The position numbers and the translations under genes were made by a program. From positions 32,001 through 96,000 of the IMG/VR virus record IMGVR_UViG_3300028840_005911: a DNA stretch of 64,000 nucleotides. One strand, given 5' to 3'. Positions 47,937 through 64,000 of the stretch are shown here, piece by piece; the stretch's first letter is position 1, and each line of letters opens with the position of its first letter. The stretch comes from a virus. Below the pieces are notes generated by a model. That model was given only the letters and a program-made list of their open reading frames with translations, was not told the DNA's origin and searched no databases.

Positions 47937-48782
47937 ATGGAAATGGCAGAACAAGCTCGGAGGGTAATTTCATGTGACGAGGGGGACCTCGAGTCAGTTG
48001 CAGAAGAGCTGGGTATCGATTTCGAGGTGGCCCAAAACACCAGAGAGTACTGGCGTGCGCGAATGGAGGGACGCTGTGTACTGTGTGGGACGGTATCCAA
48101 GACGGAGATGTGCAAGAAGTGTGCGCCAGATGGGGTAGAGCCCCTCGCAGAGTTCCCTGACATCCTCAAGGACATGAACGGGAACAGGACACTGATCTCC
48201 AAGACGTGCTCGGGGTGCAAGAAGACCAGGAATCTACGTGTGCGGTACGTCCTGGACATGCACGAAAAGTACGGATCCAAGTTCTTCAGGAACCCGAAGT
48301 GGCTATGCAAGGAGTGCTTCAGGAAGAAAGCGAAGGAACGGAACCTCAACCTCAAACACCAACCTTTCAAGTGTCTCGAAGGCAAAATAGCCGCGAAAAT
48401 GGAAAAAATCGAGGGCAATACTGGTATAAGAAAAGTGGAAGGAAAGTGCACCCTTAACACCCCCTCTGAGGAGGGGAAGGAGGAAGTCATGGCAGCAACC
48501 GCAACGAAAGCAAGTCCAGTGTCAGAACACTTCGAGGCCGCCCTCGAGAACCTCAAGTCGGACAACGACGAGGTCCGCAAGATGGCACGCGCCGAGTGCC
48601 GTCAGAGCCTGAACTACGTCGAGCAGGGCATGTCCCTGGCTCCGCGCCTCTGCCACAAGGCCGAGTTCAGCACCCCCATCGTGTCCGACATCATCTCGGT
48701 CGGCAAGCCCCTCGCCTACGCCGGCGGCATCTACGCGGGTGTCAAGGGCATCATGACCGTCGTCGAGTGGCTCCGCGCCTGA
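47937..48782 (+). CDS. Zn-finger protein with in-frame nested C-terminal gene (48489-48782)
   Basis: CVLC, CKKC, CSGC, CKEC; internal promoter and RBS at 48404-48489. Confidence 0.6.
   Translation: MEMAEQARRVISCDEGDLESVAEELGIDFEVAQNTREYWRARMEGRCVLCGTVSKTEMCKKCAPDGVEPLAEFPDILKDMNGNRTLISKTCSGCKKTRNLRVRYVLDMHEKYGSKFFRNPKWLCKECFRKKAKERNLNLKHQPFKCLEGKIAAKMEKIEGNTGIRKVEGKCTLNTPSEEGKEEVMAATATKASPVSEHFEAALENLKSDNDEVRKMARAECRQSLNYVEQGMSLAPRLCHKAEFSTPIVSDIISVGKPLAYAGGIYAGVKGIMTVVEWLRA
48404..48432 (+). promoter_or_regulatory. Phage consensus promoter
   Basis: AAAAAT-N13-GGTATAAGAA. Confidence 0.7.
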
Positions 48783-48818
48783 CCCCCTCCTTCCCGGACA
48801 TCTCCGGAAAATCCCACT

Positions 48819-48844
48819 AAAGAGAGCCCACCAGCTCTCTTTTT
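48819..48844 (+). terminator. Hairpin terminator
   Basis: AAAGAGAGC-CCACCA-GCTCTCTTTTT. Confidence 0.7.
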
Positions 48845-48851
48845 AGCCTTC

Positions 48852-48881
48852 GAAAATACGAGCACCTTTCTGGTATAAGAA
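48852..48881 (+). promoter_or_regulatory. Phage consensus promoter
   Basis: GAAAAT-N14-GGTATAAGAA. Confidence 0.75.
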
Positions 48882-48974
48882 CTATGGAGAGGTGACTTTC
48901 TCCTATGGGTGGGCGAGGAGCGGATCCACAACGGACCGCTCCTTTGCCTTACTATTCATCTTCCGGAGGGTACT

Positions 48975-49469
48975 ATGCGAGAATCTTGGGACCGATACTT
49001 CATGAACATCGCCGAGCTCGTATCTACGAGGGCGACCTGCGTGCGCAGGAAGGTCGGCGCGGTCATCGTAAGGGACAAGAACATTTTGGCGACAGGGTAT
49101 AATGGAGCTCCTCGAAGAGTGGAACACTGCACAGACGAGACCTGTCTTAGGCAGAAGCTCAACATCCCATCCGGTGAGAGGCATGAGATTTGCCGGGCCG
49201 TCCATGCCGAACAGAATGCCATCATCCAGGCCGCCCGCCATGGTGTAGCAGTCAATGGCGCGTCTTTGTACATCACAGTCTTCCCGTGCTCCATTTGCGC
49301 AAAGATGATCATCAACTCTGGGATCTCGAAGATCTACTTCGAAGGCGACTATGGAGATGCCAGGTCTACGAGCCAATCGTACGAATATCTCTGGCAGTAC
49401 AGCTCTTGTGAGCTTTACCGGGTTAAAGAGGACGGTACTACCGTACTGACGTTCCCGAAACCCAAGTAA
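48975..49469 (+). CDS. dCMP deaminase (ComEB/deoxycytidylate deaminase family)
   Basis: [22 protein letters not shown]. Confidence 0.9.
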
Positions 49470-49497
49470 AATCCGGCGTGGTCTTCCGATATAAGAA
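49467..49497 (+). promoter_or_regulatory. Phage consensus promoter
   Basis: TAAAAT-N15-GATATAAGAA. Confidence 0.7.
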
Positions 49498-49574
49498 CTA
49501 TGAACAGAAGGGCAGTGCAGCAAAACCGGGAAGGTAGGGCGCTGCAAAAGGTTACGCACCCAAAGGAGGATCAA

Positions 49575-50393
49575 ATGAAAGACTTCAGAGTGAAGGTGAG
49601 AGCCTACAATAATAGGTTGCTCGAGAGGCGGGAAAAGTTAGGACTATCTCAAAAGGCCTTGGCAGCGCAGGCTGGGATACCTGCCGGAGAGTACAACAAG
49701 TACGAGAATATGCGGAAGACGGCGTGGAACCCAAAAAAGAATAACTGGAGGCCGGATGCGGTTAAACTGGCTGCATTCCATGATGTATCCGAGTTCGATC
49801 TATTTCCCGAATCTCTCAAGATGATCGAAGCGCGTCCTGTGGAGATGGAGGTAGATGCCTGCGAGGTAGAGGCCTTGATGGGAGCCTCCATACCAACCCC
49901 ACATAAAGCTCTCGAATCTTCCGACCTGAACACAAAGGTCAGAGAAGTCATCTCTACACTCACCCCAAGAGAAGAAAAGGTAATCAGGGCACATTTCGGG
50001 ATAGGAGAGGATGAGCGGACATTTGAGGAGATCGGTGAAGAATTCGGTGTTGGCAGAAACAGAATACGTCAGATAGAGTGCAAAGCCCTTCGTAAACTAC
50101 GTCACCCACACCGGGCTAAACGTCTGATAGATTACTGTGAAGAAGGACCAGCGCCAAAGCCCAAAGAACCAAAACCTAGACCTCCTACTCCAAAAGAGCT
50201 GGCTCTAGAAAAGTTTCACGCATACGGACACAAAGAACGTAGTATGGGGTGGGCCTATCACTTCCGCTTCAGAAACTTCTATTTTCTGAAGTGCCGAACG
50301 TGCGGACGCAGGGCTTATGCAAAACGGAGAAATGGAAGGATGATGATCTTTGGGGAAGCCCTCAACGTCAAATGTGGTAAGTACCTTCCGTAA
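49575..50393 (+). CDS. XRE-HTH + sigma70 region-4 fusion
   Basis: REKLGLSQKALAAQAGI; LTPREEKVIRAHFGIGEDERTFEEIGEEFGVGRNRIRQIECKALRKLRHP. Confidence 0.8.
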   Translation: MKDFRVKVRAYNNRLLERREKLGLSQKALAAQAGIPAGEYNKYENMRKTAWNPKKNNWRPDAVKLAAFHDVSEFDLFPESLKMIEARPVEMEVDACEVEALMGASIPTPHKALESSDLNTKVREVISTLTPREEKVIRAHFGIGEDERTFEEIGEEFGVGRNRIRQIECKALRKLRHPHRAKRLIDYCEEGPAPKPKEPKPRPPTPKELALEKFHAYGHKERSMGWAYHFRFRNFYFLKCRTCGRRAYAKRRNGRMMIFGEALNVKCGKYLP

Positions 50394-50395
50394 TC

Positions 50396-50474
50396 GGTGG
50401 ATAGCTTGAGAGTTTGTTGGTGGGTCGATTGGACTAGCGAACGGTTAGATGCTGGTTCGCTGGGAAGAGAGCCT
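50396..50474 (+). repeat. G-NNN period-4 tract (18/20 units, one 3-nt unit)
   Basis: ggtg gata gctt gaga gttt gttg gtgg gtc gatt ggac tagc gaac ggtt agat gctg gttc gctg ggaa gaga gcct. Confidence 0.75.
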
Positions 50475-50487
50475 TGTGCTCTCTTTT
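50465..50487. terminator. Bidirectional terminator between convergent genes
   Basis: AAGAGAGC-CTTGT-GCTCTCTTTT. Confidence 0.7.
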
Positions 50488-50490
50488 ACC

Positions 50491-50766
50491 TCAGAGCTGC
50501 GCCTTGAGGGTCGGTGAGGGCCGGAAGCCGACGGTCTTGGAGGCCTTGACCTTGATGATCTCGCCGGTCTGCGGATTGCGGCCCTTGCGGGCCTTGCGCT
50601 TGCGCAGATTGAAGACACCGAAGCCGGCGTAGCTGAAGCGGCCTTCCTTCTTCACCGTCTTGGTGATGGTGCTGAAGACGCTGTCCACGATATCGGTCGC
50701 GGCCTTGGTCGTCATCTCGTACCCCGCCGTCTTCTTGATCTGCTCGATGAATTCCTTCTTGGTCAT
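50491..50766 (-). CDS. hup: Histone-like DNA-binding protein HU
   Basis: MTKKE, GFGVF, RKARKGRNPQTGEII, VGFRPSPTLK. Confidence 0.93.
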   Translation of the reverse strand: MTKKEFIEQIKKTAGYEMTTKAATDIVDSVFSTITKTVKKEGRFSYAGFGVFNLRKRKARKGRNPQTGEIIKVKASKTVGFRPSPTLKAQL

Positions 50767-50862
50767 GTCTGAACTCCTACAAAAGGGTTAAAGAAAACAC
50801 AGGCAGAATAAGCATAGTAGAGACAATAGTCAACAACTTTCGCCAAAATACGGCCATTATTG

Positions 50863-50893
50863 GAAATTCTGGGTGACAGTTTCGGTACAAGAA
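50863..50893 (+). promoter_or_regulatory. Phage consensus promoter
   Basis: GAAATT-N15-GGTACAAGAA. Confidence 0.65.
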
Positions 50894-50942
50894 TACTGAG
50901 GAGGAAATCCGCATTTTAACCAGCCGGGACTGGGAGAAAACC

Positions 50943-51326
50943 ATGAAGAAAGGAGTAGTCAAGATCGTAGAGGCTAAGGAGAAGTTTCCTGGAAAGGTTC
51001 CCGCAGTCGTGTACGCCGCACTGCTGGAACACAAAACAATGGCGGAGAATTTTGACTGGGCCGCTTGGCTCTACAATCCTATTCTTGGCTCGAGGTTCTT
51101 GCTGGACTCTGACGTAAACCGGCAGAACATCCTAAGAAGAACTGAGTACAACCCGTCATTCCACAAGTGGGGATATGTAGACGGGTCATGCGTCATAGTA
51201 CTAGGCGACTCAGAAGACTACGTTCTCACGACACTCGATTCTCTGCTTCCGCATGTAACGGTGCAAACACTGGACATCTGCGAGGAGAGGATGCTCATGA
51301 AACATCTGATGCGGCCGGGAGGCTAG
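50943..51326 (+). CDS. Hypothetical protein
   Basis: GGGAG RBS; between promoter and terminator. Confidence 0.6.
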   Translation: MKKGVVKIVEAKEKFPGKVPAVVYAALLEHKTMAENFDWAAWLYNPILGSRFLLDSDVNRQNILRRTEYNPSFHKWGYVDGSCVIVLGDSEDYVLTTLDSLLPHVTVQTLDICEERMLMKHLMRPGG

Positions 51327-51327
51327 G

Positions 51328-51355
51328 AATAAAGGAGGCTCCGGCCTCCTTTATT
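51328..51355 (+). terminator. Hairpin terminator
   Basis: AATAAAGGAGGC-TCCG-GCCTCCTTTATT. Confidence 0.75.
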
Positions 51356-51360
51356 ACCTG

Positions 51361-51390
51361 TAAAATACTGGACTTTCTCAGGTATAAGAA
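51361..51390 (+). promoter_or_regulatory. Phage consensus promoter
   Basis: TAAAAT-N14-GGTATAAGAA. Confidence 0.8.
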
Positions 51391-51435
51391 AAATGTGAAG
51401 AGATCATCTTAACCACCACAAGGAGGAGGAATCAC

Positions 51436-52692
51436 ATGAACATCGATCTCAACATGTTCGAGAAGGACGAGAAGACGGGACTCTACATCATCGAGGACCA
51501 GGTAGTCCTCGGTATCATCCTGGTCTACGTCATCCAGAAGCTCGGACAGTGCAACGACAACCTGCTGCGGGATACCCTCCGTGACAAACTGGGCATCTAC
51601 GTACGCAAGTGGAAGACCGTCTTCCGCAACGCCCTCAACGCTCTCAAGAAGCTGGACCTCATCGCCATCAACCAGCTCCCCGGAGAGGGGGACGTACAGG
51701 AAGAGCACTACTCCCTGAAGAACGTGGAGTTCGCCTCCCCGCCGCATCTGGCCCACTTCAAGGACGTTCTTCCCAAACTGCTTGCAGACGGGACGTCCGC
51801 AGCTATCAAGGTGGCTTTCGACTCCGGGGAAGAAGCGGAGCCAGGGGAGACCACCAAGCCCAAGAGGGGAGCAAACATCAAAGAGAGCCACGTCTACTCA
51901 GTCCGGTTCGAGAGTGAGGAGAAGTTCCTTGCTGGTAGGTCAATCTGTCCGACCATGAGGGACGGCCTGGAGAAATCTCCGTACCAACCGAACATCGATG
52001 GCTATATCAAGCAGGAAGAAGAAGAGCCCAGGAAGACCAAGAAAAAGAAGGCGGCCGATAGGGCAGACGCTAAGATCGACCGCTTCTTCGAGCGAGCCAC
52101 TGACGGCGGGATCCTGATCCACGGTGGTATCACCAAGGGCATGTTCTGCTCTGCCATACCGCGCTTGTACGGCCTCGCCCCGGCAACCGCGAGGGACAAC
52201 GGCGGGTACCCGTCGATCATCGTCTACCCGAACAATCACGGTATCCAACTGACCACACTTCCGGTCCAGGCCTCCAACGGCAAGTCAGCCGCACCGCAAA
52301 CCTACGAGACAATCATGCCTGGAGAGGAGATCCTGCTCAGGTTCTGGGCCCCGACCAAAGGGTTCCTGGACGCGGACATCATCGTTGAGTATCTCGAGTT
52401 CATCGGCCTCTTCCCAAAACGCACCCTTTCGCCCGGTCGTGGCACCGAGACTGGGAAGATGAGGATGACTCACTTCGTTGACCATGGCCTTGTTCCGGAG
52501 ATATTCGAGAAGCGCAAGAAGAACAGGAAGAAGCTTCCCATAGATGCATACCTCGACTGGGAGTTCGAAAAGGAGACCGGGGTAACGCTCCAAAAAGTCG
52601 GCGGTGCCCCGAAGACTAAGAAGGCCCGCATGCGGGTCGACGGCAACAAGATGCTCCTCTTCAAGACGAAGGGAGACCAGGCTCAGGCGTAG
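51436..52692 (+). CDS. Winged-helix + stand-alone RAMP/Cas7-like protein (Vipr-like)
   Basis: VRFESEEKFLAG; FFERATDGGILIHGGITKGMFCSA; IIVYP...LPVQASNG...YETIMPGEEI; EYLEF...PGRGTETGKM match the motif order of phage solo Cas7-like proteins as I recall them. Confidence 0.65.
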   Translation: MNIDLNMFEKDEKTGLYIIEDQVVLGIILVYVIQKLGQCNDNLLRDTLRDKLGIYVRKWKTVFRNALNALKKLDLIAINQLPGEGDVQEEHYSLKNVEFASPPHLAHFKDVLPKLLADGTSAAIKVAFDSGEEAEPGETTKPKRGANIKESHVYSVRFESEEKFLAGRSICPTMRDGLEKSPYQPNIDGYIKQEEEEPRKTKKKKAADRADAKIDRFFERATDGGILIHGGITKGMFCSAIPRLYGLAPATARDNGGYPSIIVYPNNHGIQLTTLPVQASNGKSAAPQTYETIMPGEEILLRFWAPTKGFLDADIIVEYLEFIGLFPKRTLSPGRGTETGKMRMTHFVDHGLVPEIFEKRKKNRKKLPIDAYLDWEFEKETGVTLQKVGGAPKTKKARMRVDGNKMLLFKTKGDQAQA

Positions 52693-52713
52693 TTCCTCCC
52701 CCTGGGTGCGCCT

Positions 52714-52752
52714 GGAGAGAGGGTGGGTCGCGCATCACCCCACCCTCTCTTT
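52714..52752 (+). terminator. Hairpin terminator
   Basis: GAGAGGGTGGG...CCCACCCTCTC followed by TTT. Confidence 0.75.
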
Positions 52753-52757
52753 AGCCG

Positions 52758-52788
52758 TAAATTTGACGACCCCTTTTGGGTATAAGAA
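52758..52788 (+). promoter_or_regulatory. Phage consensus promoter
   Basis: TAAATT-N15-GGTATAAGAA. Confidence 0.8.
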
Positions 52789-52830
52789 TACTGGAGAAGG
52801 ACAACCTTATATCCATAGGAGGGGAAAGCC

Positions 52831-53193
52831 ATGGATCACGTCAGCAAGCACACCAAAGGAGTCATGAACTCAATCGCCAGGTTCGCTCTCAAGCACCAGG
52901 AGAGAAACGGAATCGAAACGAAGTGGGTCTCCAAGAGCAGGATCCACGTCGTGTTCGGGAAGGAGTTCGGGGTCGACCTGAACACCATCAACTGGACCGG
53001 TGAGATCTATAAGCTCAAGCGCCGCTACGGAAAGTCAATTCGAGAACGTCTCGAGTACATTGTCCCCGGGGCCGATCTCAAGTACGACTTCTACTACCAG
53101 CTGGCAAAGATGATCTGGAGAGATCGCTACAAGAGGAAATTGACGAAGACACCAGGGTCCTGTATCATCGACGATACGTCACACACTTCTTGA
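52831..53193 (+). CDS. Hypothetical basic protein
   Basis: AGGAGGGG RBS. Confidence 0.7.
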   Translation: MDHVSKHTKGVMNSIARFALKHQERNGIETKWVSKSRIHVVFGKEFGVDLNTINWTGEIYKLKRRYGKSIRERLEYIVPGADLKYDFYYQLAKMIWRDRYKRKLTKTPGSCIIDDTSHTS

Positions 53194-53318
53194 CCGGTTT
53201 ACAGCATCCCTGTACCGGTCTACCAAAAATGACAGGTTCCTCCCGAGGGCTTCGCTGGGAGGGTCATTGAACGTGGTGAATGGGGGTCGCCCTCGCCCCC
53301 TAGTAACCGGAGGTCCTC

Positions 53319-53570
53319 ATGTACCAGCTGAAGAAGCACGTGAACCAGACCGTCCGCAAATTTCTTATATCCAAAGGGGCCTATATGCACCCGGAGGCGA
53401 TAAAGAAGCTGAAGAAGTTATCTGCAGACAGGCCGTACAACTACATCTACCAGATCAAGAGAAGATACCGGAAGATAGTGAGGAAGGCTCGCAAGAAATA
53501 CCCGAACATCGTCCACGACTGGATGGCAATCTATTACGCCTACAGGCTAGGGAGAGGAAGATGGACATAG
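53319..53570 (+). CDS. Hypothetical basic protein
   Basis: GGAGG RBS. Confidence 0.65.
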   Translation: MYQLKKHVNQTVRKFLISKGAYMHPEAIKKLKKLSADRPYNYIYQIKRRYRKIVRKARKKYPNIVHDWMAIYYAYRLGRGRWT

Positions 53571-54076
53571 AGAAGAAATTCTATCTGACACAGAGGATAG
53601 AGAAGCAGTGGAATGCTCCTCGGGACGATAAGGAAGGCGTCGACGCTTATTTCGCCTTCGACTACATGGGATCTTCAGAGTTCGAGTGGGGAGCGCTCCC
53701 TAAGGCTCTGCGAGACATGCGCAAGGGCTGGAAGGAAGAAGAGCCAGTCATTGTGAGGATCAACGCATACATCCCCCTGGATGATATTGAAGAAAAAGAT
53801 AATGGGGTCACCTGTCATGTCTGGTTTGTAGGCAATAGAGAAGACCTCGAGGACGCTACTGATTTCTTCAACGACCAACTCACTGATAGGAAGATCCGAA
53901 TCCATGAGAGGACCTGCATGTCACAGGCCTACGGTATCCCTGAGGGGCCATATGACAAGGCATCAAGCTTCTACGACAGGCTGATAGGGTGGTGGGCTCT
54001 GAATGGTCTGATATGTCTCTTCCGGGACGAGGAGGACGCAAAAATCTGGAAAAGGGAGGTTCTCAATGGACAATAA
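53561..54076 (+). CDS. Hypothetical protein
   Basis: GAGG RBS before MDIEKK; FDYMGSSEFEWG. Confidence 0.7.
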   Translation: MDIEKKFYLTQRIEKQWNAPRDDKEGVDAYFAFDYMGSSEFEWGALPKALRDMRKGWKEEEPVIVRINAYIPLDDIEEKDNGVTCHVWFVGNREDLEDATDFFNDQLTDRKIRIHERTCMSQAYGIPEGPYDKASSFYDRLIGWWALNGLICLFRDEEDAKIWKREVLNGQ

Positions 54077-54105
54077 GAAACGTACTGCAAGAGCTGGAGC
54101 TTGCA

Positions 54106-54135
54106 TAAAATCTAGCTGTGAATACGGTATAAGGA
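54106..54135 (+). promoter_or_regulatory. Phage consensus promoter
   Basis: TAAAAT-N14-GGTATAAGGA. Confidence 0.8.
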
Positions 54136-54196
54136 TACTGTAGGAGATCGTTAGGTCTCCATGTTACAATCTCAGCTTCACAAGGAGGGAAATCCC

Positions 54197-54952
54197 ATGG
54201 GTAAGATGCACGAACTGCTGGCAGTCGAGTCAGACCGCGAGGCGGTCTTCAAGAAGGTCGTCACCGAGGCCGGCGATACGTTCCGTAAACGCTCCGACCA
54301 CTTCCTCGGGCACCACAAGACGCTCGAGATGAAGGAAGAGGGCAAGGAGATGGCAGAGGCCGCTGCCGAAGACCACAAGGCCATGGTCACGACTGTCGGC
54401 AAGAAGCTCGACTACGTCTCCAACCCGGTCGTCACATACCTGGACGCGGTCCTGCAGAAGGAATGCACCAACCAGGTGGCGAAAGCCGATCTCGTTCTTC
54501 CGGACGGCACCGTGCTCGGCAAAGACCTGCCGGCCACCTTCTTGCTAGGGCTCGAGTCCAAGCTCAAGTTCCTCCGTCAGATGTACGAGAACATCCCGAC
54601 CTTGTCCCCTGGGACAGAGTGGGTCGCAGATGATCAGATGGGCGAAGGGGTCTACAAGTCCAAGCATCTCGAGACCAAGGCCAAGACGGAGACGACTGTC
54701 GAACACAAGGTCATCGTCGAAGCCACCGAGCACCACCCGGCCCAGATCGGCGAGGCATCCATCACCGAGGTCGTCGGTGTCTTCAAGACCAAGCACTGGA
54801 GCGGGATGATCTCTCCTGCCCGGAAGTCGGAGCTCCTGGGACGGTTGGACGTACTCATGCAGGCCGCCAAGCAAGCAAGGATGAGGGCCAACTCAGCGGA
54901 CACCATCGACAGGAAGATCGGCAAGGAGCTGGTGGACTACATCAACGCATAG
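54197..54952 (+). CDS. Conserved helical protein (recalled as DUF7873-like, unverified)
   Basis: K.HELLAVE, LPATFLLGLE, IPTL, HPAQ, WSGMISP, AAKQARMRAN. Confidence 0.65.
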   Translation: MGKMHELLAVESDREAVFKKVVTEAGDTFRKRSDHFLGHHKTLEMKEEGKEMAEAAAEDHKAMVTTVGKKLDYVSNPVVTYLDAVLQKECTNQVAKADLVLPDGTVLGKDLPATFLLGLESKLKFLRQMYENIPTLSPGTEWVADDQMGEGVYKSKHLETKAKTETTVEHKVIVEATEHHPAQIGEASITEVVGVFKTKHWSGMISPARKSELLGRLDVLMQAAKQARMRANSADTIDRKIGKELVDYINA

Positions 54953-55111
54953 GAGAACAGAGGTTTGACAAGTGGGTCAGCATTGGTGTTCCTGAAGCGG
55001 AGTCCCGGTTTGACACCCGGAACAAGGCCCGCAGACAGGGGTACTGAGCTTCAGAGTGAGCGTCAGCTTATCGAACCCACAGCGTCAATAGCCGTAATAC
55101 AACCCTGATGA

Positions 55112-55244
55112 GGATCTTCTGGCATGAACCACAATCACCGTGGTCGCAGGTTCAAGTCCTGCCATCCCCTCCAACCTATGGGGATGTAGCTCAGTGGTAA
55201 GAGCGACGGGTCGTTGTTGTAACGGTTCTTGGGTAGATGATTCC
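55112..55244 (+). ncRNA. Circularly permuted tRNA-like RNA (YrlA/Y-RNA-like)
   Basis: T arm GCAGG-TTCAAGT-CCTGC, then CATCCCC-TCCA-ACCTAT-GGGGATG, then D arm GCTC-AGTGGTAA-GAGC, closed by a long imperfect stem. Confidence 0.7.
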
Positions 55245-55328
55245 AAGGGTGGCGGCGCTGGGTGACTGGGAGACGATGTGTATCTATGGAGATTTGGCAC
55301 GTCAATGTCTTCCAGTCACTCCATCATT

Positions 55329-55373
55329 AGGGCCGGGAGGCCGCAAATAGCCGGCCTCCCGGCCCTCTCTTTT
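55329..55373 (+). terminator. Hairpin terminator
   Basis: AGGGCCGGGAGGCCG...CGGCCTCCCGGCCCT followed by CTCTTTT. Confidence 0.75.
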
Positions 55374-55482
55374 GAGGAGATTTAATGGGCGATCCAATGT
55401 TCGGGTACATGGTAGGCTCACTGATCGTTATCGTGCTCGTGGTTGTGATCTTCTCCTGTACTCCAGATAGGAGGAGGAAACG

Positions 55483-55776
55483 ATGAGAGAACCAATAGAC
55501 TACGACGGATACATGTGGGATCGAGACCCAGAGGCCGTAGAGGAACACAAAGAGCTCGAGCCCGCACTGGAGGTACTCGACGCCTTCATCTCGGACTGGG
55601 TCGAGCCGTGCTACAATTTCCTGGACTTCCAACGAGAGGCTCTGGTAACAATCGAAGCCTACATCAAATTCCTCGAGGGCCCAAACATGGCAGAAGGCGA
55701 TCTGAAGGCACTCAGGGAGAGGTTCCGAAATGAGCGAGAAAGAAGCCAAGAAGAGAGAGCTCCTGAACAGGGCTGA
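55483..55776 (+). CDS. Hypothetical protein
   Basis: GGAGG RBS. Confidence 0.6.
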   Translation: MREPIDYDGYMWDRDPEAVEEHKELEPALEVLDAFISDWVEPCYNFLDFQREALVTIEAYIKFLEGPNMAEGDLKALRERFRNERERSQEERAPEQG

Positions 55777-55930
55777 GAATACCCTAACGGAGCTCATGGA
55801 TGTTGTCGAGAAGGACAGCAAGAAGATCCTCACGATGGATACCATCAACGGGGTCCGCAAGCTCCGGACATATCTCGTCGGCGGACATTACACGCCGTTT
55901 CTTGGCATAAAAGATCGAACAGGCCAGTAG
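55730..55930 (+). CDS. Hypothetical protein
   Basis: GAGG RBS; stop lies inside tRNA 5' end. Confidence 0.55.
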   Translation: MSEKEAKKRELLNRAENTLTELMDVVEKDSKKILTMDTINGVRKLRTYLVGGHYTPFLGIKDRTGQ

Positions 55931-56001
55931 CTCAATTGGTAGAGCACCCGCAATCTGAAACATGCGGGAGGTTTGGGGTTCAAGTCCTTGCTGGCCTACC
56001 A
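55921..56001 (+). tRNA. Atypical tRNA, possibly Phe(GAA), with enlarged anticodon arm
   Basis: AGGCCAG/CTGGCCT acceptor, ACCA end, D arm, TTCAAGT loop; 22-nt anticodon arm; three G-U pairs in T stem. Confidence 0.7.
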
Positions 56002-56133
56002 GTTCCGGGCCATAGTGGTCCGGTGAAGCTTCTAGGATGGCCCCTGGAGCTTCAAGGCCCTGGGCGCGGGGAAGGAAAAGGATTCCTCCTTTTGGGTGCT
56101 CCCCGCGCCCGGGCAATCTCTCAAGGAGCGCCG

Positions 56134-56394
56134 ATGCACAAATTTAAGTGTCCCCACTGTGGAGACGATTCCTATATCTGCCGCAACGAGACGGTGTACC
56201 TACAGACGCCGGTGAAACCAACAGACACCTCATGGACATACGACGAGGACAGGATGGCATTTGACGGGGCGATCCTGTGGGATACCTGCGGACGGTACGA
56301 TCTCGATGACCAGGAATTCAAGTGTGTGAACTGCCTGACCGACTTCGACTGGTCCATCATCGACGGGCCAACGAACGTCGTTCTACCTGACTAG
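56134..56394 (+). CDS. Zn-ribbon protein
   Basis: CPHCG...CVNC; AAGGAG RBS. Confidence 0.7.
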   Translation: MHKFKCPHCGDDSYICRNETVYLQTPVKPTDTSWTYDEDRMAFDGAILWDTCGRYDLDDQEFKCVNCLTDFDWSIIDGPTNVVLPD

Positions 56395-56402
56395 GAACAA
56401 CA

Positions 56403-56642
56403 ATGAAATGCCAAAGATGTGAAAGCGAGAGGATCCTGAAATTCTCCGGGAAGACCTCTGACCTCTTTTCCTGCTACTACATGGGCAAAGAGCACCAAGG
56501 GTATGTGCCGAAAGGCATCGGTATCAACGATAAGTACAGGGACTATCTACAAGGACGTCTGTGCATGGAGTGCGGACAAGTCCAAGGAGAATTCCCCGTA
56601 CCCGGGCCAGACATCGAAGACGATGAAGAAGAGGAGTTGTAA
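56403..56642 (+). CDS. Zn-ribbon protein
   Basis: CQRC...CMECG. Confidence 0.7.
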   Translation: MKCQRCESERILKFSGKTSDLFSCYYMGKEHQGYVPKGIGINDKYRDYLQGRLCMECGQVQGEFPVPGPDIEDDEEEEL

Positions 56643-56643
56643 C

Positions 56644-57027
56644 ATGTTCGAAGAGCTGACCTTCAAGAAAGAGGAAGTCCTCAATAGGCTGAAGATCAAT
56701 CGCGAGGAGCATCTGAAGATCGTACGCGAAGCCCAGGAGGGTTACCGGGAGCAGTACGAGAAGCTCCTGGTCAAGACCCTCGATGATCTCCGGTCCGGGA
56801 AAGAGGTTCCTAACCACGTAGGTCTGACAGTCCCGTCGAACCACGTGGATGATTATGACCGTGCTATCGAGATGCTCGAGATGTGCACCGAGAAAGAGAT
56901 CATCCTCGACGAGAACCAGTTCCAGGAGCTCATGCGTAACAAGTGGAACTGGATGAGCGGGTTCCTGGTCAGCAACGCTGGTTACAGCGCCACTGCCCAC
57001 AACATCACCACGACAGCCGACGTGTAA
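56644..57027 (+). CDS. Hypothetical protein
   Basis: GAGGAG RBS before MFEELT. Confidence 0.7.
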   Translation: MFEELTFKKEEVLNRLKINREEHLKIVREAQEGYREQYEKLLVKTLDDLRSGKEVPNHVGLTVPSNHVDDYDRAIEMLEMCTEKEIILDENQFQELMRNKWNWMSGFLVSNAGYSATAHNITTTADV

Positions 57028-57054
57028 AATACTGAAATCATTCGGTTATAAGAA
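57025..57054 (+). promoter_or_regulatory. Phage consensus promoter
   Basis: TAAAAT-N14-GTTATAAGAA. Confidence 0.75.
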
Positions 57055-57175
57055 CTTCGAGGAGAAGTTTACACACCTGGTCCCCTCACTCCCCTCCGAG
57101 GGGACCAAACTCCTACACCTTGGGCCTGCCGGCAGGTATCCCTCCCCCTCCTGCCGGCAGGCCCCTTCAAAAACT

Positions 57176-57235
57176 GGATGTTAGGTGGAACTGCCGTGCG
57201 CATGTCCGGGAGTCCGTAGGAATGGGTAGGTGAGG
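57176..57235 (+). repeat. G-NNN period-4 tract (13/15)
   Basis: ggat gtta ggtg gaac tgcc gtgc gcat gtcc ggga gtcc gtag gaat gggt aggt gagg. Confidence 0.7.
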
Positions 57236-57236
57236 T

Positions 57237-57265
57237 AAGAAGGGGAGCCCTGTTCCTCTTCTTTT
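57237..57265 (+). terminator. Hairpin terminator
   Basis: AAGAAGGGGAGC-CCT-GTTCCTCTTCTTTT. Confidence 0.7.
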
Positions 57266-57271
57266 AGCCCA

Positions 57272-57302
57272 TGAATTCTAAGGTCTTCTTGCGGTATAAG
57301 GA
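57272..57302 (+). promoter_or_regulatory. Phage consensus promoter
   Basis: TGAATT-N15-GGTATAAGGA. Confidence 0.7.
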
Positions 57303-57338
57303 TACTGAGGAAGAACCTTAGCACCACAGGAGGAAGCC

Positions 57339-57683
57339 ATGAAATATCTTGAGAGAGCGGCGATAAGCCTGCAATCTGTTCTACACAAAGGGAGCACCGA
57401 TCTCGAGAAGATCGGCATCTTGCTGGCCAACATCCATACCATCATCGATCTGTGGATCCCCATCGGCCGGGCTGTTCAGATCATGGGTCGGGAGCGTTCG
57501 GCCCCGGTTCTGCGCTCGAGGGCCGAGAAGCTCATCAGGGATATCCGTAGAGAGGACGAGGATGCCGTCAGAGAGGATATCTCGGTCATAGAGGACATAG
57601 TATACCAGTACACCGGAAAACGTCCCGTAGGGGGCAAGGAGTACGCTAGCAGGGAGACTATCCAGTTTGTCGACGCCCCCTGA
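57339..57683 (+). CDS. Hypothetical protein
   Basis: AGGAGG RBS. Confidence 0.7.
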   Translation: MKYLERAAISLQSVLHKGSTDLEKIGILLANIHTIIDLWIPIGRAVQIMGRERSAPVLRSRAEKLIRDIRREDEDAVREDISVIEDIVYQYTGKRPVGGKEYASRETIQFVDAP

Positions 57684-57813
57684 GTCTGATACACTGGCCT
57701 CGGCCCTGCCGGATAGTTCATCCATGTGAGCTCCTACCAAGTCCAGCAGGGTCATTTATTTTGGAGAAGGAAATGGACAGACCAACATACAGGAGCAGAA
57801 GAAGAGTGGACTG

Positions 57814-58032
57814 GTGGCTATCACCACCGGTCTGTTCATCGACAGGGCATCTTCACGAAAACAGATAGAGGAGGCATGGCCCAGCCTCTGCAAGGATCTC
57901 GGGCTGGTTGATGACAAAACCGGGACGAACACGTACACCATTCAGGGGTTCGATCTCTACAAGTGGGTTGAGGAGAAGCACCAAGAGAAGTTCAACTCTG
58001 AGCCGGACCCTGTACCAAAACCCCATTCTTGA
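57814..58032 (+). CDS. Hypothetical protein (start uncertain)
   Basis: GTG start; strong-RBS ATG at 57773 is out of frame. Confidence 0.45.
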   Translation: MAITTGLFIDRASSRKQIEEAWPSLCKDLGLVDDKTGTNTYTIQGFDLYKWVEEKHQEKFNSEPDPVPKPHS

Positions 58033-58160
58033 CATGCGCGATCACCTCTTTGCAGTGATCACAGACAATGCACACATATCCGTCAATGACCTGAACGGAG
58101 AGGATATGGAACATGTGTTTCTCGAGATCCATTTCTAGATTGTAGCACAGGAGCAAAGTT

Positions 58161-58409
58161 ATGGGAGATTTGTCAGACGACCTCCGCGAGATGGGTATAG
58201 CCGAGGAAGGTATACCCCAGACGGAGATGATCTGTGAAATATTCGCACCGGTGATTGACGAGCTCATCGAACATCGCCTCGACGCGGCTACTACTGAAAA
58301 AGAGAAGAGGAATGCTCCCTACGATGTGAGGGACTACCTGTTCCGTCTGATAACCGCGATAGCCACTCAGAAAAAATACATCAGGAGGGCAAACGAATGG
58401 AAAGAGTAA
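58161..58409 (+). CDS. Hypothetical protein
   Basis: AGGAG RBS. Confidence 0.65.
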   Translation: MGDLSDDLREMGIAEEGIPQTEMICEIFAPVIDELIEHRLDAATTEKEKRNAPYDVRDYLFRLITAIATQKKYIRRANEWKE

Positions 58410-58639
58410 GCGCGTGGGTCATCGTCTGCGGGACTGGCGCCTTATACCCTATAGGGTCAGGTGGAGGGAAGGCCGCCTACATCCACAAAGAGGTCGCCGA
58501 GGATGTAATGATGGCCATCGCTGATCACGATAAGGCCTACGTCAAAGGTCGCGGAGGTCTTCACCTCGAAGAAATAACTGCAGAGGCCGGCCTGTTCAAG
58601 CAGCTAGGCCTCAATCTTGTCACGCAGGAGAAAGAGTAA
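58397..58639 (+). CDS. Hypothetical protein
   Basis: GGAGG RBS. Confidence 0.6.
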   Translation: MERVSAWVIVCGTGALYPIGSGGGKAAYIHKEVAEDVMMAIADHDKAYVKGRGGLHLEEITAEAGLFKQLGLNLVTQEKE

Positions 58640-58881
58640 TGGCCTACGTAGTCGGACTTCTCACAGATGAGGAGATGGAGATTCTCGAAGAGCGCGGATG
58701 GGATTTCGAGGAACCTCCCGCAGAGCTCAAGCTGGGGAGGTGTCCCCCGGGAAAGGTCCAGAAGATGGTCTGGGTCGACAGTGATATGTTCGAGATCATC
58801 GGCCCCTGGGAAGACAGGTCGTTCAGTGACGGTCCTCCCTACGATGCCGCAACTGCTACGGGGATGTACGACCGGTACTAA
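58639..58881 (+). CDS. Hypothetical acidic protein
   Basis: TAATG overlap. Confidence 0.6.
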   Translation: MAYVVGLLTDEEMEILEERGWDFEEPPAELKLGRCPPGKVQKMVWVDSDMFEIIGPWEDRSFSDGPPYDAATATGMYDRY

Positions 58882-58900
58882 ACACGGCCGGTTGAATGGC

Positions 58901-59040
58901 GATAGATTGAATGAGTTACTGATAGTTTGCGAGGGAGTTGGGAAGGACGGAGTCTGGAAAGCAGTGAGGAAAGGGCGGAAGGTTGTTCGATCTCACGAGG
59001 GATAGGCAGCCAGTGGGCCTGTGGGGAGGAGCGAACGGAA
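58901..59040 (+). repeat. G-NNN period-4 tract (31/35)
   Basis: gata gatt gaat gagt tact gata gttt gcga ggga gttg ggaa ggac ... gagc gaac ggaa. Confidence 0.85.
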
Positions 59041-59066
59041 AAGAGACTGATCTGGTCTCTTTTCTT
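59039..59066 (+). terminator. Hairpin terminator
   Basis: AAAAGAGAC-TGATCTG-GTCTCTTTT. Confidence 0.75.
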
Positions 59067-59074
59067 ACTTATGA

Positions 59075-59104
59075 AAAAATAACGCGATCCTTTGGGTATA
59101 AGAA
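59075..59104 (+). promoter_or_regulatory. Phage consensus promoter
   Basis: AAAAAT-N14-GGTATAAGAA. Confidence 0.8.
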
Positions 59105-59146
59105 AAGTGAAGAGGAATCGATAACTTTCACCCTTAGGAGGAAGCC

Positions 59147-59854
59147 ATGGGTAACGGTCGTCAAGGATTCGGACCAATAAATGGTGCGAAGGTGGTCAAG
59201 AAAGAAGCAGAGAATATGTGCGAATTTGGGTGGGTGGTGGATTCGATATGGTACAAGATAGAAAATGAAAAACTCAACCTGGCCATGAAAGGGCAATTCC
59301 CACAGCATCCATACTATTCCAAAAAGACGCAGTGCCTGCGAAAATCGACACGAACCAAAACAGGTCCTGTCAGGCCGGAAGATGTTGGCAAAAAGTGGCT
59401 GTTGAGGAAACTTGACGGGACACGTACAACCCTCTCGATCGTCGATGAGAAACCAGAAGGGTACAAACTCTTGTGCTCTCCAAAGAGGAAGAAACAGCTG
59501 GACCGCCTCAAACCGGCACCGGTCATCACCCAAGGGATGTTGGAAAACAAAGGCGCCACGGCAGCGATGAGCGCAGAAAAGGTCTGTCGTCTCTATCGGA
59601 CAATGGCGAAAGAGGAGTTCATCTTCGATAACCCTCCCACTATCGAATCCCCGGTCCCGGATTCGATGATCACCATTATCGCATTGAATGGTGGTGAGAT
59701 GCAGTCCTTTCAGGTTCCTGCGACTCAGATAGCCATCATGAAGGATGGTGTCGTAGGTGTCCTCGATGAGGAGTTCGAGTTCCAGAAATCGAACCTCCCA
59801 ACCTCGATGACAAATCTGCTCCGCGCAGCCGCAGAAAATGTCAGCTCGACATAG
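59147..59854 (+). CDS. Hypothetical protein
   Basis: AGGAGG RBS. Confidence 0.65.
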   Translation: MGNGRQGFGPINGAKVVKKEAENMCEFGWVVDSIWYKIENEKLNLAMKGQFPQHPYYSKKTQCLRKSTRTKTGPVRPEDVGKKWLLRKLDGTRTTLSIVDEKPEGYKLLCSPKRKKQLDRLKPAPVITQGMLENKGATAAMSAEKVCRLYRTMAKEEFIFDNPPTIESPVPDSMITIIALNGGEMQSFQVPATQIAIMKDGVVGVLDEEFEFQKSNLPTSMTNLLRAAAENVSST

Positions 59855-61261: not shown

Positions 61262-61611
61262 GCAAAGAGCTATACAACCAGCTATTGAAAATGATGTTGT
61301 TGGCCGATGTCCGGAACCCCATGTCTGCGACAGATCAGGTGGACTGGATCATAGAGATACTGGACGCGCTCTTGAACAGAACCAATGTGCAGTATATGGA
61401 TTTGGAAGACGGCCTTACGTTCTTTGAAGACAGGTCAACATACCATTTGACAACAATGTGCATCAACGAGGTGTACAGAGTGTACGTCTTGGAGGAGTTT
61501 GGTGGCGAGTTCGCCCTTATCACACCCAAACTCCTTCCGGACCATATCAAAGAAAAGATCCTGGATGTTCTGAAGGACTTCATTTCGAAGTGCGCCTCAG
61601 AAGGGACTTGA
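61258..61611 (+). CDS. Hypothetical protein
   Basis: ATGA overlap, AGGAG RBS. Confidence 0.6.
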   Translation: MSKELYNQLLKMMLLADVRNPMSATDQVDWIIEILDALLNRTNVQYMDLEDGLTFFEDRSTYHLTTMCINEVYRVYVLEEFGGEFALITPKLLPDHIKEKILDVLKDFISKCASEGT

Positions 61612-61701
61612 GTGACGGTTCGTACGGTCGGCTGTATGGTCGGGAGCGCGTCTGGATAGTGTGGGGTTTGTGGGACGGCCCGCAGGGATGTCGGAACGGT
61701 G
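61610..61701 (+). repeat. G-NNN period-4 tract (21/23)
   Basis: gagt gacg gttc gtac ggtc ggct gtat ggtc ggga gcgc gtct ggat agtg tggg gttt gtgg gacg gccc gcag ggat gtcg gaac ggtg. Confidence 0.85.
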
Positions 61702-61706
61702 TGGAC

Positions 61707-61735
61707 AAGAAAGAGGGCCTTCTGTCTTCTTTCTT
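61707..61735 (+). terminator. Hairpin terminator
   Basis: AAGAAAGAGGGC-CTTCT-GTCTTCTTTCTT. Confidence 0.7.
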
Positions 61736-61746
61736 ACATATTTTCG

Positions 61747-61777
61747 GAAAATTTGAAGGTGTTTTTCGGTATAAGAA
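61747..61777 (+). promoter_or_regulatory. Phage consensus promoter
   Basis: GAAAAT-N15-GGTATAAGAA. Confidence 0.8.
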
Positions 61778-61779
61778 TT

Positions 61780-62117: not shown

Positions 62118-62127
62118 ACCTATTTAG

Positions 62128-62158
62128 TAAAATCCAACACCTCTGTTGGGTATAAGAA
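62128..62158 (+). promoter_or_regulatory. Consensus promoter with palindromic operator in spacer
   Basis: TAAAAT-N15-GGTATAAGAA; CCAACAC-CT-CTGTTGG at 62134-62149. Confidence 0.8.
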
Positions 62159-62204
62159 TAGTGACAGGAGAATGCAGTCTTTTCAACACCCAAAGGAGGA
62201 GACC

Positions 62205-62393: not shown

Positions 62394-62396
62394 GTC

Positions 62397-62540: not shown

Positions 62541-62541
62541 T

Positions 62542-62557
62542 CCAACAGGTCTGTTGG
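62542..62557. promoter_or_regulatory. Palindrome CCAACAG-GT-CTGTTGG
   Basis: Perfect 7-bp arms; one of four copies. Confidence 0.6.
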
Positions 62558-62562
62558 ACACT

Positions 62563-62678
62563 GATTGGCTGGGAGTACGAGGGGTATATGGGATGGTAGT
62601 GAGATCTGACGTGTGAGCGGATGTCGTCTGGCTCGTACGGAGGGTTGGTCGGGAACGCGGACGTGGGCGAGAATGAAT
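62563..62678 (+). repeat. G-NNN period-4 tract (25/29)
   Basis: gatt ggct ggga gtac gagg ggta tatg ggat ggta gtga gatc ... gtgg gcga gaat gaat. Confidence 0.85.
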
Positions 62679-62745: not shown

Positions 62746-62791
62746 CCAACAGGGCTGTTGTAAATTACTTACCGCGATTCTGGTATAAGAG
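62746..62791 (+). promoter_or_regulatory. Operator CCAACAG-GG-CTGTTGT abutting consensus promoter
   Basis: Palindrome 62746-62761; TAAATT-N15-GGTATAAGAG. Confidence 0.75.
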
Positions 62792-62912
62792 ATCTATGGG
62801 AGCGTGTTTCGCTCCTTCGCATTGAGCTGGTCCTGGAGTAGGTAACGGGTAACCGTGTGGCGCGCGACATGTCTACTCCAGGACCGCAAGACATTATCCC
62901 GGCCTTCGGCCG

Positions 62913-63160
62913 GTTTGATTGTGTTGTGGGTGGAATGTCGGGAGTATCGGACGCTTGAACGAATGTGGGAGAGTAAATCAGACAGGGGAGCAGGTTGATC
63001 GAAGAGAGGCAAGGGCGGTCGCCGGTATGAGTGTTCGCGGGTCTGGTAGCGAGAGGGTACGTTTGTCCGTGGTGCGGAATCATGGGGCGTTTGTCAAAAG
63101 GAAGGTACGAGCGTGAGTGGGAACATGCGTCTGCACGGTGGCCCGAGCGAAAGCTCGAGA
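62913..63160 (+). repeat. G-NNN period-4 tract (53/62, unbroken phase)
   Basis: gttt gatt gtgt tgtg ggtg gaat gtcg ggag ... gccc gagc gaaa gctc gaga. Confidence 0.9.
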
Positions 63161-63185
63161 AGAGGATACCCCCTATCCTCTTCTT
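63158..63185 (+). terminator. Hairpin terminator
   Basis: AGAAGAGGATA-CCCCC-TATCCTCTTCTT. Confidence 0.75.
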
Positions 63186-63957: not shown

Positions 63958-64000
63958 GGGCTGAACAACGCGGAGCTGGCCGCTGAATCCAGCAATGATT

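What the first reader, a model, noticed from the sequence alone, without database searches (positions are those of the whole stretch)
51436..52692. Winged-helix fused to a stand-alone Cas7/RAMP-like domain in its own transcription unit
Seen: residues about 150-350 carry in order VRF.SEE.FLAG, F.R..DG.I.I....KG.F..A, I.V.P...P.QA.NG....YETI.PG..I and EYLEF...GRG..TGKM, which I match from memory to phage solo Cas7-like proteins (FPRD.DG.P..WDYQIKGFFKDAC; SETIPAG; EWLDYG...G.GRF). The first about 110 aa look like a wHTH (TLRDKLGIY...FRNALNALKKLDLI). It has its own promoter and terminator, and no cas1, cas2, cas5, cas6 or CRISPR array is in the window. Inference: an RNA-guided DNA-binding or transcription-modulating effector with an added DNA- or RNAP-contacting domain.
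Basis: inference. Interest (0 to 1): 0.85.

Follow-up and report, generated by a model that had tools for sequence, protein, structure and literature searches.

The report
Phage wHTH–RAMP protein with GNNN RNAs
A complete 192-kb phage encodes a winged-helix DNA-binding domain fused to a lone CRISPR-type Cas7/RAMP domain, beside non-coding tracts with G at every fourth base; together they look like a new relative of the recently described VIPR RNA-guided systems, using a 4-letter instead of a 5-letter repeat code.

Summary

The complete genome has no Cas1, no Pfam-recognisable RAMP and no CRISPR array. It also lacks VIPR's YNNGG pentamer RNAs; the same scan found them in phage SUSP1.

G fills 90% of phase-0 positions over 205 units, the triplets are non-repetitive, and chance expectation is 1e-8 to 1e-16. 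Nearly all run into a hairpin. Two lie in promoter-to-terminator units without an ORF.

Similar tracts directly flank the homologous gene in at least six other lineages, on the gene's strand only.

Best reading: a VIPR-like RNA-protein system with a period-4 code and a built-in DNA-binding domain. RNA binding, guide function and targets are not shown.

The parts
51325..51359 (+). Terminator hairpin of the upstream gene (50943-51326)
   Evidence: RNA fold -23.2 kcal/mol, z -6.2
51360..51390 (+). Promoter of the wHTH-RAMP gene: -35-like GTAAAAT (51360-51366) and extended -10 GGTATAAGAA (51381-51390)
   Evidence: One of 14 plus-strand copies of the same two-box motif; 15 hits vs 2.1 expected. Function as a promoter is inferred.
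51420..51429 (+). Shine-Dalgarno AAGGAGGAGG
   Evidence: Sequence
51436..52692 (+). wHTH-RAMP gene, 418 aa
   Evidence: ORF; family of 88 clusters at 50% identity, mostly full-length matches; AF2 model pLDDT 86.8, pTM 0.72
51469..51825 (+). PadR/Pex-type winged helix plus C-terminal helices (residues ~12-130)
51880..52521 (+). Cas7/RAMP-fold domain (residues ~149-362), with a Lys-rich flexible insert at ~195-212
   Evidence: Foldseek and VIA-align matches to Csm3, Cmr, Csf2, Cas7-11 and type VII Cas7; viral solo RAMPs in BFVD and ESM Atlas
52429..52455 (+). G-rich loop S332-P-G-R-G-T-E-T-G340, between helix 313-325 and strand 342-352
   Evidence: Best-conserved motif of the family: S 98%, P 93%, R 95%, G336 90%, G340 100%; position from the model's secondary structure
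52711..52755 (+). Terminator hairpin of the gene (13-bp stem, 11-nt loop)
   Evidence: -35.5 kcal/mol for the 68-nt stretch, z -4.3
50396..50424 (+). (GNNN)8 tract, marginal (at the chance level for its length)
   Evidence: 8/8 G in phase, but shuffled genomes give 2-7 such short tracts
57045..57265 (+). ORF-less transcription unit: promoter (57045-57054), two 5' hairpins, (GNNN)13 tract 57176-57224, terminator hairpin
   Evidence: the only overlapping ORF is 37 aa without an SD
58901..59037 (+). (GNNN)35 tract, 31 G in phase, in the 3'UTR after the 58639-58881 gene; runs directly into a terminator hairpin
   Evidence: chance E 1.5e-8
61610..61698 (+). (GNNN)12 and (GNNN)9 tracts (21/21 G) after the 61258-61611 gene, followed by a terminator hairpin
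62563..62675 (+). (GNNN)29 tract, 25 G in phase, after the 62397-62540 gene and the palindrome at 62543-62556
   Evidence: chance E 1.8e-5
62782..63184 (+). ORF-less transcription unit: promoter (62782-62791), 5' hairpins, (GNNN)63 tract 62909-63157 (54 G in phase), terminator hairpin 63158-63184
   Evidence: chance E 1.3e-16
63997..64000 (+). Start of (GNNN)10 and (GNNN)35 tracts that run to 64171, beyond the window (genome 95997-96171); a 1-nt phase slip lies between them; a terminator hairpin follows
   Evidence: chance E 2.3e-11

Best explanation
The gene encodes a two-domain protein. A PadR/Pex-type winged-helix module (residues ~12-130) is joined by a flexible linker to a minimal Cas7-type RAMP domain (~149-362). 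That domain has a conserved G-rich loop, and a basic disordered tail follows it. I propose it is the protein half of a CRISPR-independent, VIPR-like RNA-protein system. The RNA half would be the (GNNN)n tracts transcribed from the same strand 1-12.7 kb away; in relatives they lie directly beside the gene. Proposed mechanism, by analogy with Cas7 and Vipr filaments and inferred rather than shown: RAMP domains line up along a tract. Each grips the invariant G of a 4-nt unit with the G-loop and neighbouring conserved residues (aromatic/His at 151, Y290, E291, R335) and leaves the three variable bases exposed. The 3' hairpin caps the RNA. The fused winged helix supplies DNA contact and/or dimerisation, the job that separate WH-like/HTH-like Vap proteins are predicted to do in VIPR types II, VI and VII. 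The complex would then bind nucleic acid specified by the NNN triplets, most likely to silence transcription of a rival element or a host gene. Shown here: the ORF, the fold, the family, the absence of cas genes and CRISPR arrays, the tracts and their statistics, and gene-tract co-occurrence in several lineages. Inferred: RNA binding, stoichiometry, guide function, DNA targeting and biological role.
Against: There is no experimental or RNA-seq evidence that the tracts are expressed as discrete RNAs or bind the protein. In this phage the tracts are not adjacent to the gene: the nearest long one is 4.5 kb away. Four lineages (L001, L014, L018, L139) show no tract within the few kb in hand. L011 has only degenerate tracts, and L140's 2-kb gap has at best a weak T-anchored period-4 signal. 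No target was found for the triplets in the phage's own genome under 0-, 1- or 2-nt skip rules, and the longest tract has no match in 50,697 phage genomes. There is no detectable sequence homology to SUSP1-type Vipr or Vap. Tracts of up to 63 units are far longer than VIPR's 9-16. Most lie in 3'UTRs, which also fits a cis-regulatory role. The two VIPR papers are preprints.
Confidence: 0.6

Rival explanations
1. RNA-binding regulator without guide function. The RAMP domain coats G-periodic tracts in the phage's own transcripts (mostly 3'UTRs just before terminators) to control their stability, termination read-through or translation, much as TRAP-type proteins read spaced triplets. The winged helix separately regulates promoters. 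Only the G matters, and the NNN positions are free to drift.
For: Four of the six long tracts lie between a stop codon and a terminator. Tract length varies 8-63 units. The triplets look random and find no target. An operator-like palindrome CAACAG-NN-CTGTTG sits in promoter spacers in the tract-rich zone.
Against: Two tracts have dedicated ORF-less transcription units. In relatives the tracts form arrays beside the gene with conserved 3' hairpin tails, like vrRNA arrays and unlike UTR elements. The only characterised phage solo RAMPs are guide-using.
Confidence: 0.2
2. Anti-CRISPR decoy. A Cas7 look-alike poisons assembly of the host's type I, III or IV effector or soaks up crRNA. The N-terminal HTH acts as a built-in Aca-type autorepressor, as in HTH-fused anti-CRISPRs (from my own knowledge of AcrIIA1-type proteins).
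For: A phage-encoded Cas7 fold without any cas partner; early-type promoter and its own transcription unit.
Against: There is no sequence similarity to any CRISPR Cas7: Pfam RAMPs gives no hit for any of 66 members. The nearest shapes are viral solo RAMPs rather than a particular host Cas7. This reading does not explain the co-occurring GNNN tracts across lineages. No operator-like palindrome lies at the gene's own promoter.
Confidence: 0.1
3. The gene and the tracts are unrelated. The tracts belong to another function of these phages, and the RAMP-fold protein is a DNA-binding transcription factor whose C-terminal domain has lost RNA binding.
For: In this genome the gene is not adjacent to any long tract. 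Four lineages lack tracts in the DNA at hand.
Against: In five other lineages tracts start within ~35 nt of the stop codon or end within 15 nt of the start codon, on the gene's strand only. The G-loop, the RNA-binding hallmark, is the family's best-conserved motif.
Confidence: 0.08

Closest known systems
VIPR systems (Vipr RAMP + vrRNA; bioRxiv 10.64898/2026.04.26.720920 and 10.64898/2026.04.26.720927)
   Same: A phage-encoded solo RAMP with a G-loop and no cas genes or CRISPR array. It is associated with non-coding RNAs built from many short tandem units that combine an invariant G-containing anchor with hypervariable positions, followed by a structured 3' element. In relatives, arrays flank the gene on its own strand. 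A winged-helix/HTH DNA-binding function is part of the system.
   Different: The repeat period is 4 (G+NNN), not 5 (GGY+NN or the NNNGG/YNNNG/NNNNG variants named in the paper). There is one anchor base instead of three, and three variable bases instead of two. Tracts reach 63 units versus 9-16. The RAMP is fused to the winged helix (418 aa versus ~195 aa) instead of having a separate vap gene. There is no detectable sequence homology to the SUSP1-type clade (hhalign 0.6%). In this phage the RNAs are dispersed over 14 kb, several in 3'UTRs. RNA binding, DNA targeting and function are untested.
CRISPR Cas7-family RAMPs (Csm3, Cmr4/Cmr6, Csf2, Cas7-11 domains, type VII Cas7)
   Same: The same fold by two aligners; a G-rich loop in the canonical position; a helix-1 motif of the F-x-R...G...I....(K/R)-G-(W/F) type.
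   Different: No Pfam RAMP match. No conserved acidic residue in the loop after strand 1, where Csm3 and Cmr4 carry their catalytic Asp. No cas partners and no CRISPR array in a complete genome. An extra N-terminal winged helix.
PadR / Pex family winged-helix regulators
   Same: The N-terminal ~120 residues superpose on Pex and PadR, including the helices after the wing. Weak profile hits to LmrR/PadR chains.
   Different: No Pfam PadR hit. Here it is an N-terminal module of a larger RNA-binding-type protein. Dimerisation and an operator are not shown.

Membership tests
RAMP / Cas7 superfamily | RRM-like core fold superposable on Cas7-family subunits | tested here: met
RAMP / Cas7 superfamily | Glycine-rich loop between helix 2 and the last core strand | tested here: met
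   S332-P-G-R-G-T-E-T-G340 between H313-325 and E342-352; 90-100% conserved in 66 members
RAMP / Cas7 superfamily | Thumb beta-hairpin | tested here: inconclusive
   Strands 270-278 and 284-293 lie between core strands and carry P276 (98%), Y290 and E291 (100%). The order fits a thumb, but I could not inspect coordinates.
RAMP / Cas7 superfamily | Sequence match to curated RAMP models (Pfam PF03787) | tested here: not met
   No hit for the protein, for any of 66 members, or in the six-frame genome search
Type III Csm3/Cmr4 target RNases | Conserved catalytic Asp in the loop after strand 1 | tested here: not met
   The only column in residues 150-360 with 75% or more acidic residues is E291. 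The post-strand-1 loop is L-G-S-Q-like.
CRISPR-Cas system | cas partners and a CRISPR array in the genome | tested here: not met
   Complete 192-kb genome: no Cas1, no other RAMP; self-BLAST finds no regularly spaced repeats. Cas2, Cas5 and Cas6 models were not run.
VIPR | Solo RAMP in a phage, minimal locus, not CRISPR-associated | tested here: met
VIPR | vrRNA of YNNGG (or NNNGG / YNNNG / NNNNG) period-5 tandem repeats | tested here: not met
   No run of 4 or more units in the window. The tolerant scan of the whole genome stays at the shuffled level. No period-5 spectral signal in the genome or in relatives' gaps. The same scans recover SUSP1's arrays of 12, 6, 5 and 4 units and its top period-5 power.
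VIPR | Short-period repeat RNA with an invariant anchor, hypervariable positions and a structured 3' tail, linked to the RAMP gene | tested here: met
   Met in a variant form, (GNNN)n followed by a hairpin. The conserved tails in L012 and L011 show covariation.
VIPR | Sequence homology to Vipr proteins | tested here: inconclusive
   hhalign of the family (66 sequences) against the SUSP1-clade Vipr family (29 sequences): probability 0.6%, though the elements align in the same order. Only one of the seven Vipr types was available to me. RAMPs are known to diverge beyond sequence detection.
VIPR | Protein-RNA filament and RNA-guided dsDNA binding with a skip rule | not testable with these tools
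   Needs biochemistry or structures. No natural target was identified.
VIPR | Accessory vap gene | tested here: inconclusive
   No neighbour is conserved across the loci. A winged helix is fused to the RAMP instead. The paper predicts WH-like/HTH-like Vap proteins.
PadR-type wHTH | Winged-helix fold with C-terminal helix | tested here: met
PadR-type wHTH | Match to Pfam PadR (PF03551) | tested here: not met
   No Pfam hit; only weak PDB-profile hits, E 0.003

The most novel reading that the evidence does not exclude
This family and its (GNNN)n RNAs form a second natural non-contiguous RNA-guided recognition system. It would have a 4-nt register (one sequestered G, three read-out bases), very long guides (up to 63 units) and a RAMP naturally fused to a DNA-binding winged helix. 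That makes it a sister to, or an undescribed type of, VIPR with a different code.
Probability: 0.45. Interest if true: 0.9.

Novelty: new variant of a known kind. Interest (0 to 1): 0.8.

Why it matters
VIPR, described in two 2026 preprints, showed that a lone phage RAMP can read a 5-nt repeat code and bind DNA through gapped pairing. A related protein family that goes with a 4-nt G+NNN code would show that the register of such codes is evolvable. It would give a second geometry for working out how RAMP filaments present bases, with three read-out bases per unit instead of two. It would also offer a natural example of a RAMP fused to a DNA-binding domain, something the VIPR authors propose to engineer. 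The family is invisible to Pfam, PHROGs and deposited phage genomes, so it would extend the known diversity of CRISPR-independent RAMP systems. The claim is directly testable with two small transcription units and one gene.

Tried and rejected
- **Family and structure libraries.** Pfam, PHROGs and a PDB sequence search of the single protein gave nothing.
- **Deposited phages.** tblastn and megablast found no match.
- **More loci.** Searches of IMG/VR and of representative prokaryote genomes found no relatives. The metagenome scan gave only L012/L013.
- **YNNGG, NNNGG and YNNNG scans, and period-5/6 spectra.** Absent here, present in the SUSP1 control.
- **Same-loop hairpin arrays.** A motif-free search of our genome gave only chance-level repeats. 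Genome self-BLAST found only collagen-like repeats, promoter copies, repeated leaders of minus-strand genes and the 144-bp terminal repeat.
- **Covariance models.** Models of the L011 hairpin (R1) and the L012 hairpin (R2) have no copy outside their own lineage or in the window.
- **Rfam.** No family matches any of the arrays.
- **Comparison with SUSP1 Vipr and Vap.** hhalign against SUSP1 Vipr, SUSP1 Vap and the Vipr family profile was not significant.
- **Targets.** A search of the phage's own genome under skip 0, 1 and 2 rules stayed at control level. The longest tract has no match among phage genomes in distant mode.
- **Reciprocal test.** None carried the family gene, so the test was uninformative.
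- **First palindrome pattern.** It had the wrong spacer and was corrected.
- **Complex prediction.** Three copies of the RAMP domain gave no verdict (median score 0.31, mark 0.42). This is neither support nor evidence against.

Full report
**Observation.** The ORF at 51436-52692 (+) is real: 418 aa, an ATG start and a strong SD. The gene has a two-box promoter, GTAAAAT then 16 nt then TATAAG within GGTATAAGAA. It is bracketed by strong hairpins. This promoter recurs 14 times on the plus strand between 48 and 64 kb, so a private transcription unit is the norm in this part of the genome.

**Genome.** The window lies in a complete viral genome of 192,446 bp with direct terminal repeats and a CheckV estimate of 100%. 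It carries collagen and beta-helix tail-fibre genes, an ATP-dependent ligase, a RecA-like gene, a dCMP deaminase, an HU protein and an HTH/sigma-region-4 protein.

**What the protein is.**
- Pfam, PHROGs, PDB sequence search and 50,697 deposited phage genomes give nothing.
- An exhaustive HMMER search finds 88 clusters at 50% identity, 51 of them below 1e-10. Most are 340-440 aa and match over the whole length. The two-domain architecture is therefore an old, conserved family, known only from metagenomic phage-like contigs.
- With a 66-sequence alignment, AlphaFold2 gives a confident model (pLDDT 86.8, pTM 0.72).
- Foldseek against the PDB returns only Cas7-family RAMPs at the top (Csm3, Cas7-11, type VII Cas7, Cmr): E about 1e-6, probability 1.00, TM by target 0.5-0.6.
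- The nearest predicted structures among viral and metagenomic proteins are small (about 190-300 aa) viral solo RAMPs.
- The most conserved family motif is S-P-x-R-G-x3-G (residues 332-340), exactly where RAMPs carry their glycine-rich RNA-binding loop. Other conserved positions are F218, R220, G224, G235, an aromatic at 236, P276, Y290, E291 (invariant), G296, P306 (invariant) and R329.
- No acidic residue is conserved where Csm3 and Cmr4 have their catalytic Asp, so a Csm3-type RNase activity is not expected.
- The genome has no Cas1, no Pfam-recognisable RAMP, only one copy of this family and no CRISPR-like repeats.

**Comparison with VIPR.** Two 2026 preprints describe VIPR. A roughly 195-aa phage RAMP (Vipr) polymerises on vrRNAs made of 9-16 YNNGG units followed by a structured tail. 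It binds dsDNA through gapped pairing and silences rival phages. Separate Vap proteins are often predicted WH-like or HTH-like DNA binders.

I tested VIPR's defining RNA directly. There is no YNNGG run of four or more units in the window. The whole genome shows nothing above shuffled level for YNNGG, NNNGG or YNNNG. There is no period-5 spectral signal. The same scripts recover the vrRNA arrays of phage SUSP1 (12, 6, 5 and 4 units flanking its vipr-vap pair) and rank them first by period-5 power.

Profile-profile comparison of our family with SUSP1 Vipr, its Vap, or a 29-member Vipr family profile is not significant (probability 0.5-0.6%). The proposed alignment does keep the order strand 1, Lys-rich insert, helix 1.

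**The RNA candidate.** Earlier first-stage notes of this scan claimed G at every fourth base in several intergenic tracts. I tested this and it holds.
- On the plus strand there are tracts at 57176-57224 (12 of 13 G), 58901-59037 (31 of 35), 61610-61698 (21 of 21 in two runs), 62563-62675 (25 of 29) and 62909-63157 (54 of 63). Another at 63997-64171 (43 of 45, with one phase slip) runs past the window's end. A marginal 8-unit tract lies at 50396.
- Over 205 units, phase 0 is G 90%, T 6%, A 3% and C 0%. The other three positions are unbiased. Sixty of the 64 triplets occur and there is no period-8 or period-12 substructure. Chance expectation per genome is 1e-8 to 1e-16 for the long tracts.
- A period of four cannot be coding, and ORFs that overlap the tracts lack SD sequences.
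- Nearly all tracts run within 0-25 nt into a strong hairpin.
- Two sit in promoter-to-terminator units with no ORF (57045-57265 and 62782-63184). The others lie between a stop codon and the terminator.

**Family-level link.** The same scan on contigs carrying homologues finds tracts on the gene's strand, usually touching the gene.
- L016 has 36 units (32 G) 34 nt after the stop, 32 units ending 9 nt before the start, and a third tract 3 kb upstream.
- L009/L010 has 35 units beginning at the stop codon, plus three more downstream.
- L012/L013 has eight tracts in the 940 nt after the gene. Most of them run into one of five copies of a conserved two-tier hairpin that shows compensatory changes.
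- L017 has tracts at the stop and 186 nt after it.
- L141 has nine plus-strand tracts against none on the minus strand. One ends 15 nt before the start, one begins 2 nt after the stop, and six fill the following 1.2 kb.
- L006 has a 14-unit tract at the stop.
- L011 has a 1.5-kb array of about nine units, plus one unit upstream of the gene. Each unit ends in a hairpin with a 9-bp variable stem and a conserved 12-nt loop: 98.8% of cells paired, 8 of 9 pairs compensatory, 0 of 500 shuffles as good. Its tracts are only about 70-75% G.
- L001, L014, L139 and the 2.2-kb L018 contig show no tract in the DNA available. L140 has a 2-kb gene-free gap with, at best, a weak T-anchored period-4 signal.
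- SUSP1 has none beyond chance.
- The 3' hairpins are lineage-specific and match no Rfam family.

**Interpretation.** The fold, the conserved G-loop, the solo status in a complete phage genome and the repeated association with anchor-plus-variable repeat RNAs capped by hairpins all point one way. This looks like a VIPR-like RNA-protein system with a period-4 code and a RAMP fused to a winged helix.

The steps from there are inference by analogy: one protomer per unit, the G sequestered, the triplets read out on DNA, and transcription silenced. A serious rival is that the protein merely coats G-periodic stretches of the phage's own transcripts as a cis-regulator. Most tracts are in 3'UTRs, and I found no target for the triplets in the phage itself or, for the longest tract, in deposited phages. 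An anti-CRISPR decoy and pure coincidence are less likely.

**Limits.**
- All evidence is computational.
- Expression data could not be obtained.
- The homo-oligomer prediction gave no verdict.
- A reciprocal search from tracts to genes in IMG/VR was swamped by simple repeats.
- Only one of the seven Vipr types was available for comparison, so I cannot exclude that this family falls inside a described type. However, the paper names only period-5 codes.

Noticed in passing
window 48423-63221 (+): Fourteen plus-strand copies of a two-box promoter (GTAAAAT, about 16 nt, TATAAG within GGTATAAGAA). Most are preceded by a purine-arm/pyrimidine-arm terminator hairpin ending TTAGCC or TTACC, which gives a string of small terminator-promoter cassettes.
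   Followed up: partly
window 62135, 62543, 62747, 63198 (and 64238, 64323 just past the window): The palindrome CAACAG-NN-CTGTTG occurs 4 times in the window (0.16 expected) and 6 times within 2.2 kb, all in the tract-rich zone. Two copies lie exactly between the -35 and -10 boxes of promoters, one abuts a -35 box and one immediately precedes the 62563 tract. It is operator-like, but which protein binds it is unknown.
   Followed up: partly
L011:1262-1310 and L011:2836-4125: An array of about 9 hairpins, plus one upstream of the homologous gene, with a conserved 12-nt loop GGCCGUGAUGGU and a fully covarying 9-bp stem (98.8% paired, 8 of 9 pairs compensatory). No Rfam match.
   Followed up: yes
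L012:3247-3987 (same in L013): Five copies of a ~50-nt two-tier hairpin (6-bp outer stem, internal loop, 13-bp inner stem, variable apical loop). Most of the GNNN tracts in the array run into one of them, so it may be a 3' handle.
   Followed up: yes
L140:7076-7228: In the 2-kb gene-free gap after another family member, the best periodic signal is T at every fourth base on the gene's strand (score 14 against a shuffled maximum of 11). This may be a U-anchored variant, or it may be chance.
   Followed up: no
window 49500-50393 (+): A 297-aa protein combining an XRE-type HTH (HTH_3) with sigma-70 region 4, next to a convergent HU gene (50491-50766, -). It is a candidate phage transcription factor for the repeated promoter.
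   Followed up: no
window 55921-55998 (+): A tRNA gene (Rfam RF00005, 50.8 bits) inside the accessory region.
   Followed up: no
genome 98357-98799 (window coordinates 66357-66799, outside the window): A repeated leader on minus-strand small genes (reverse complement of CCATCTCACTCCTCCCTCGCCGCGCG, i.e. SD plus start codon) in three copies. It is not an RNA array.
   Followed up: partly
window 10550-17972 (-): Two very large tail-fibre-like proteins (931 and 1539 aa) with collagen triple-helix repeats plus pectinesterase or right-handed beta-helix domains. They account for most internal DNA repeats of the genome.
   Followed up: no
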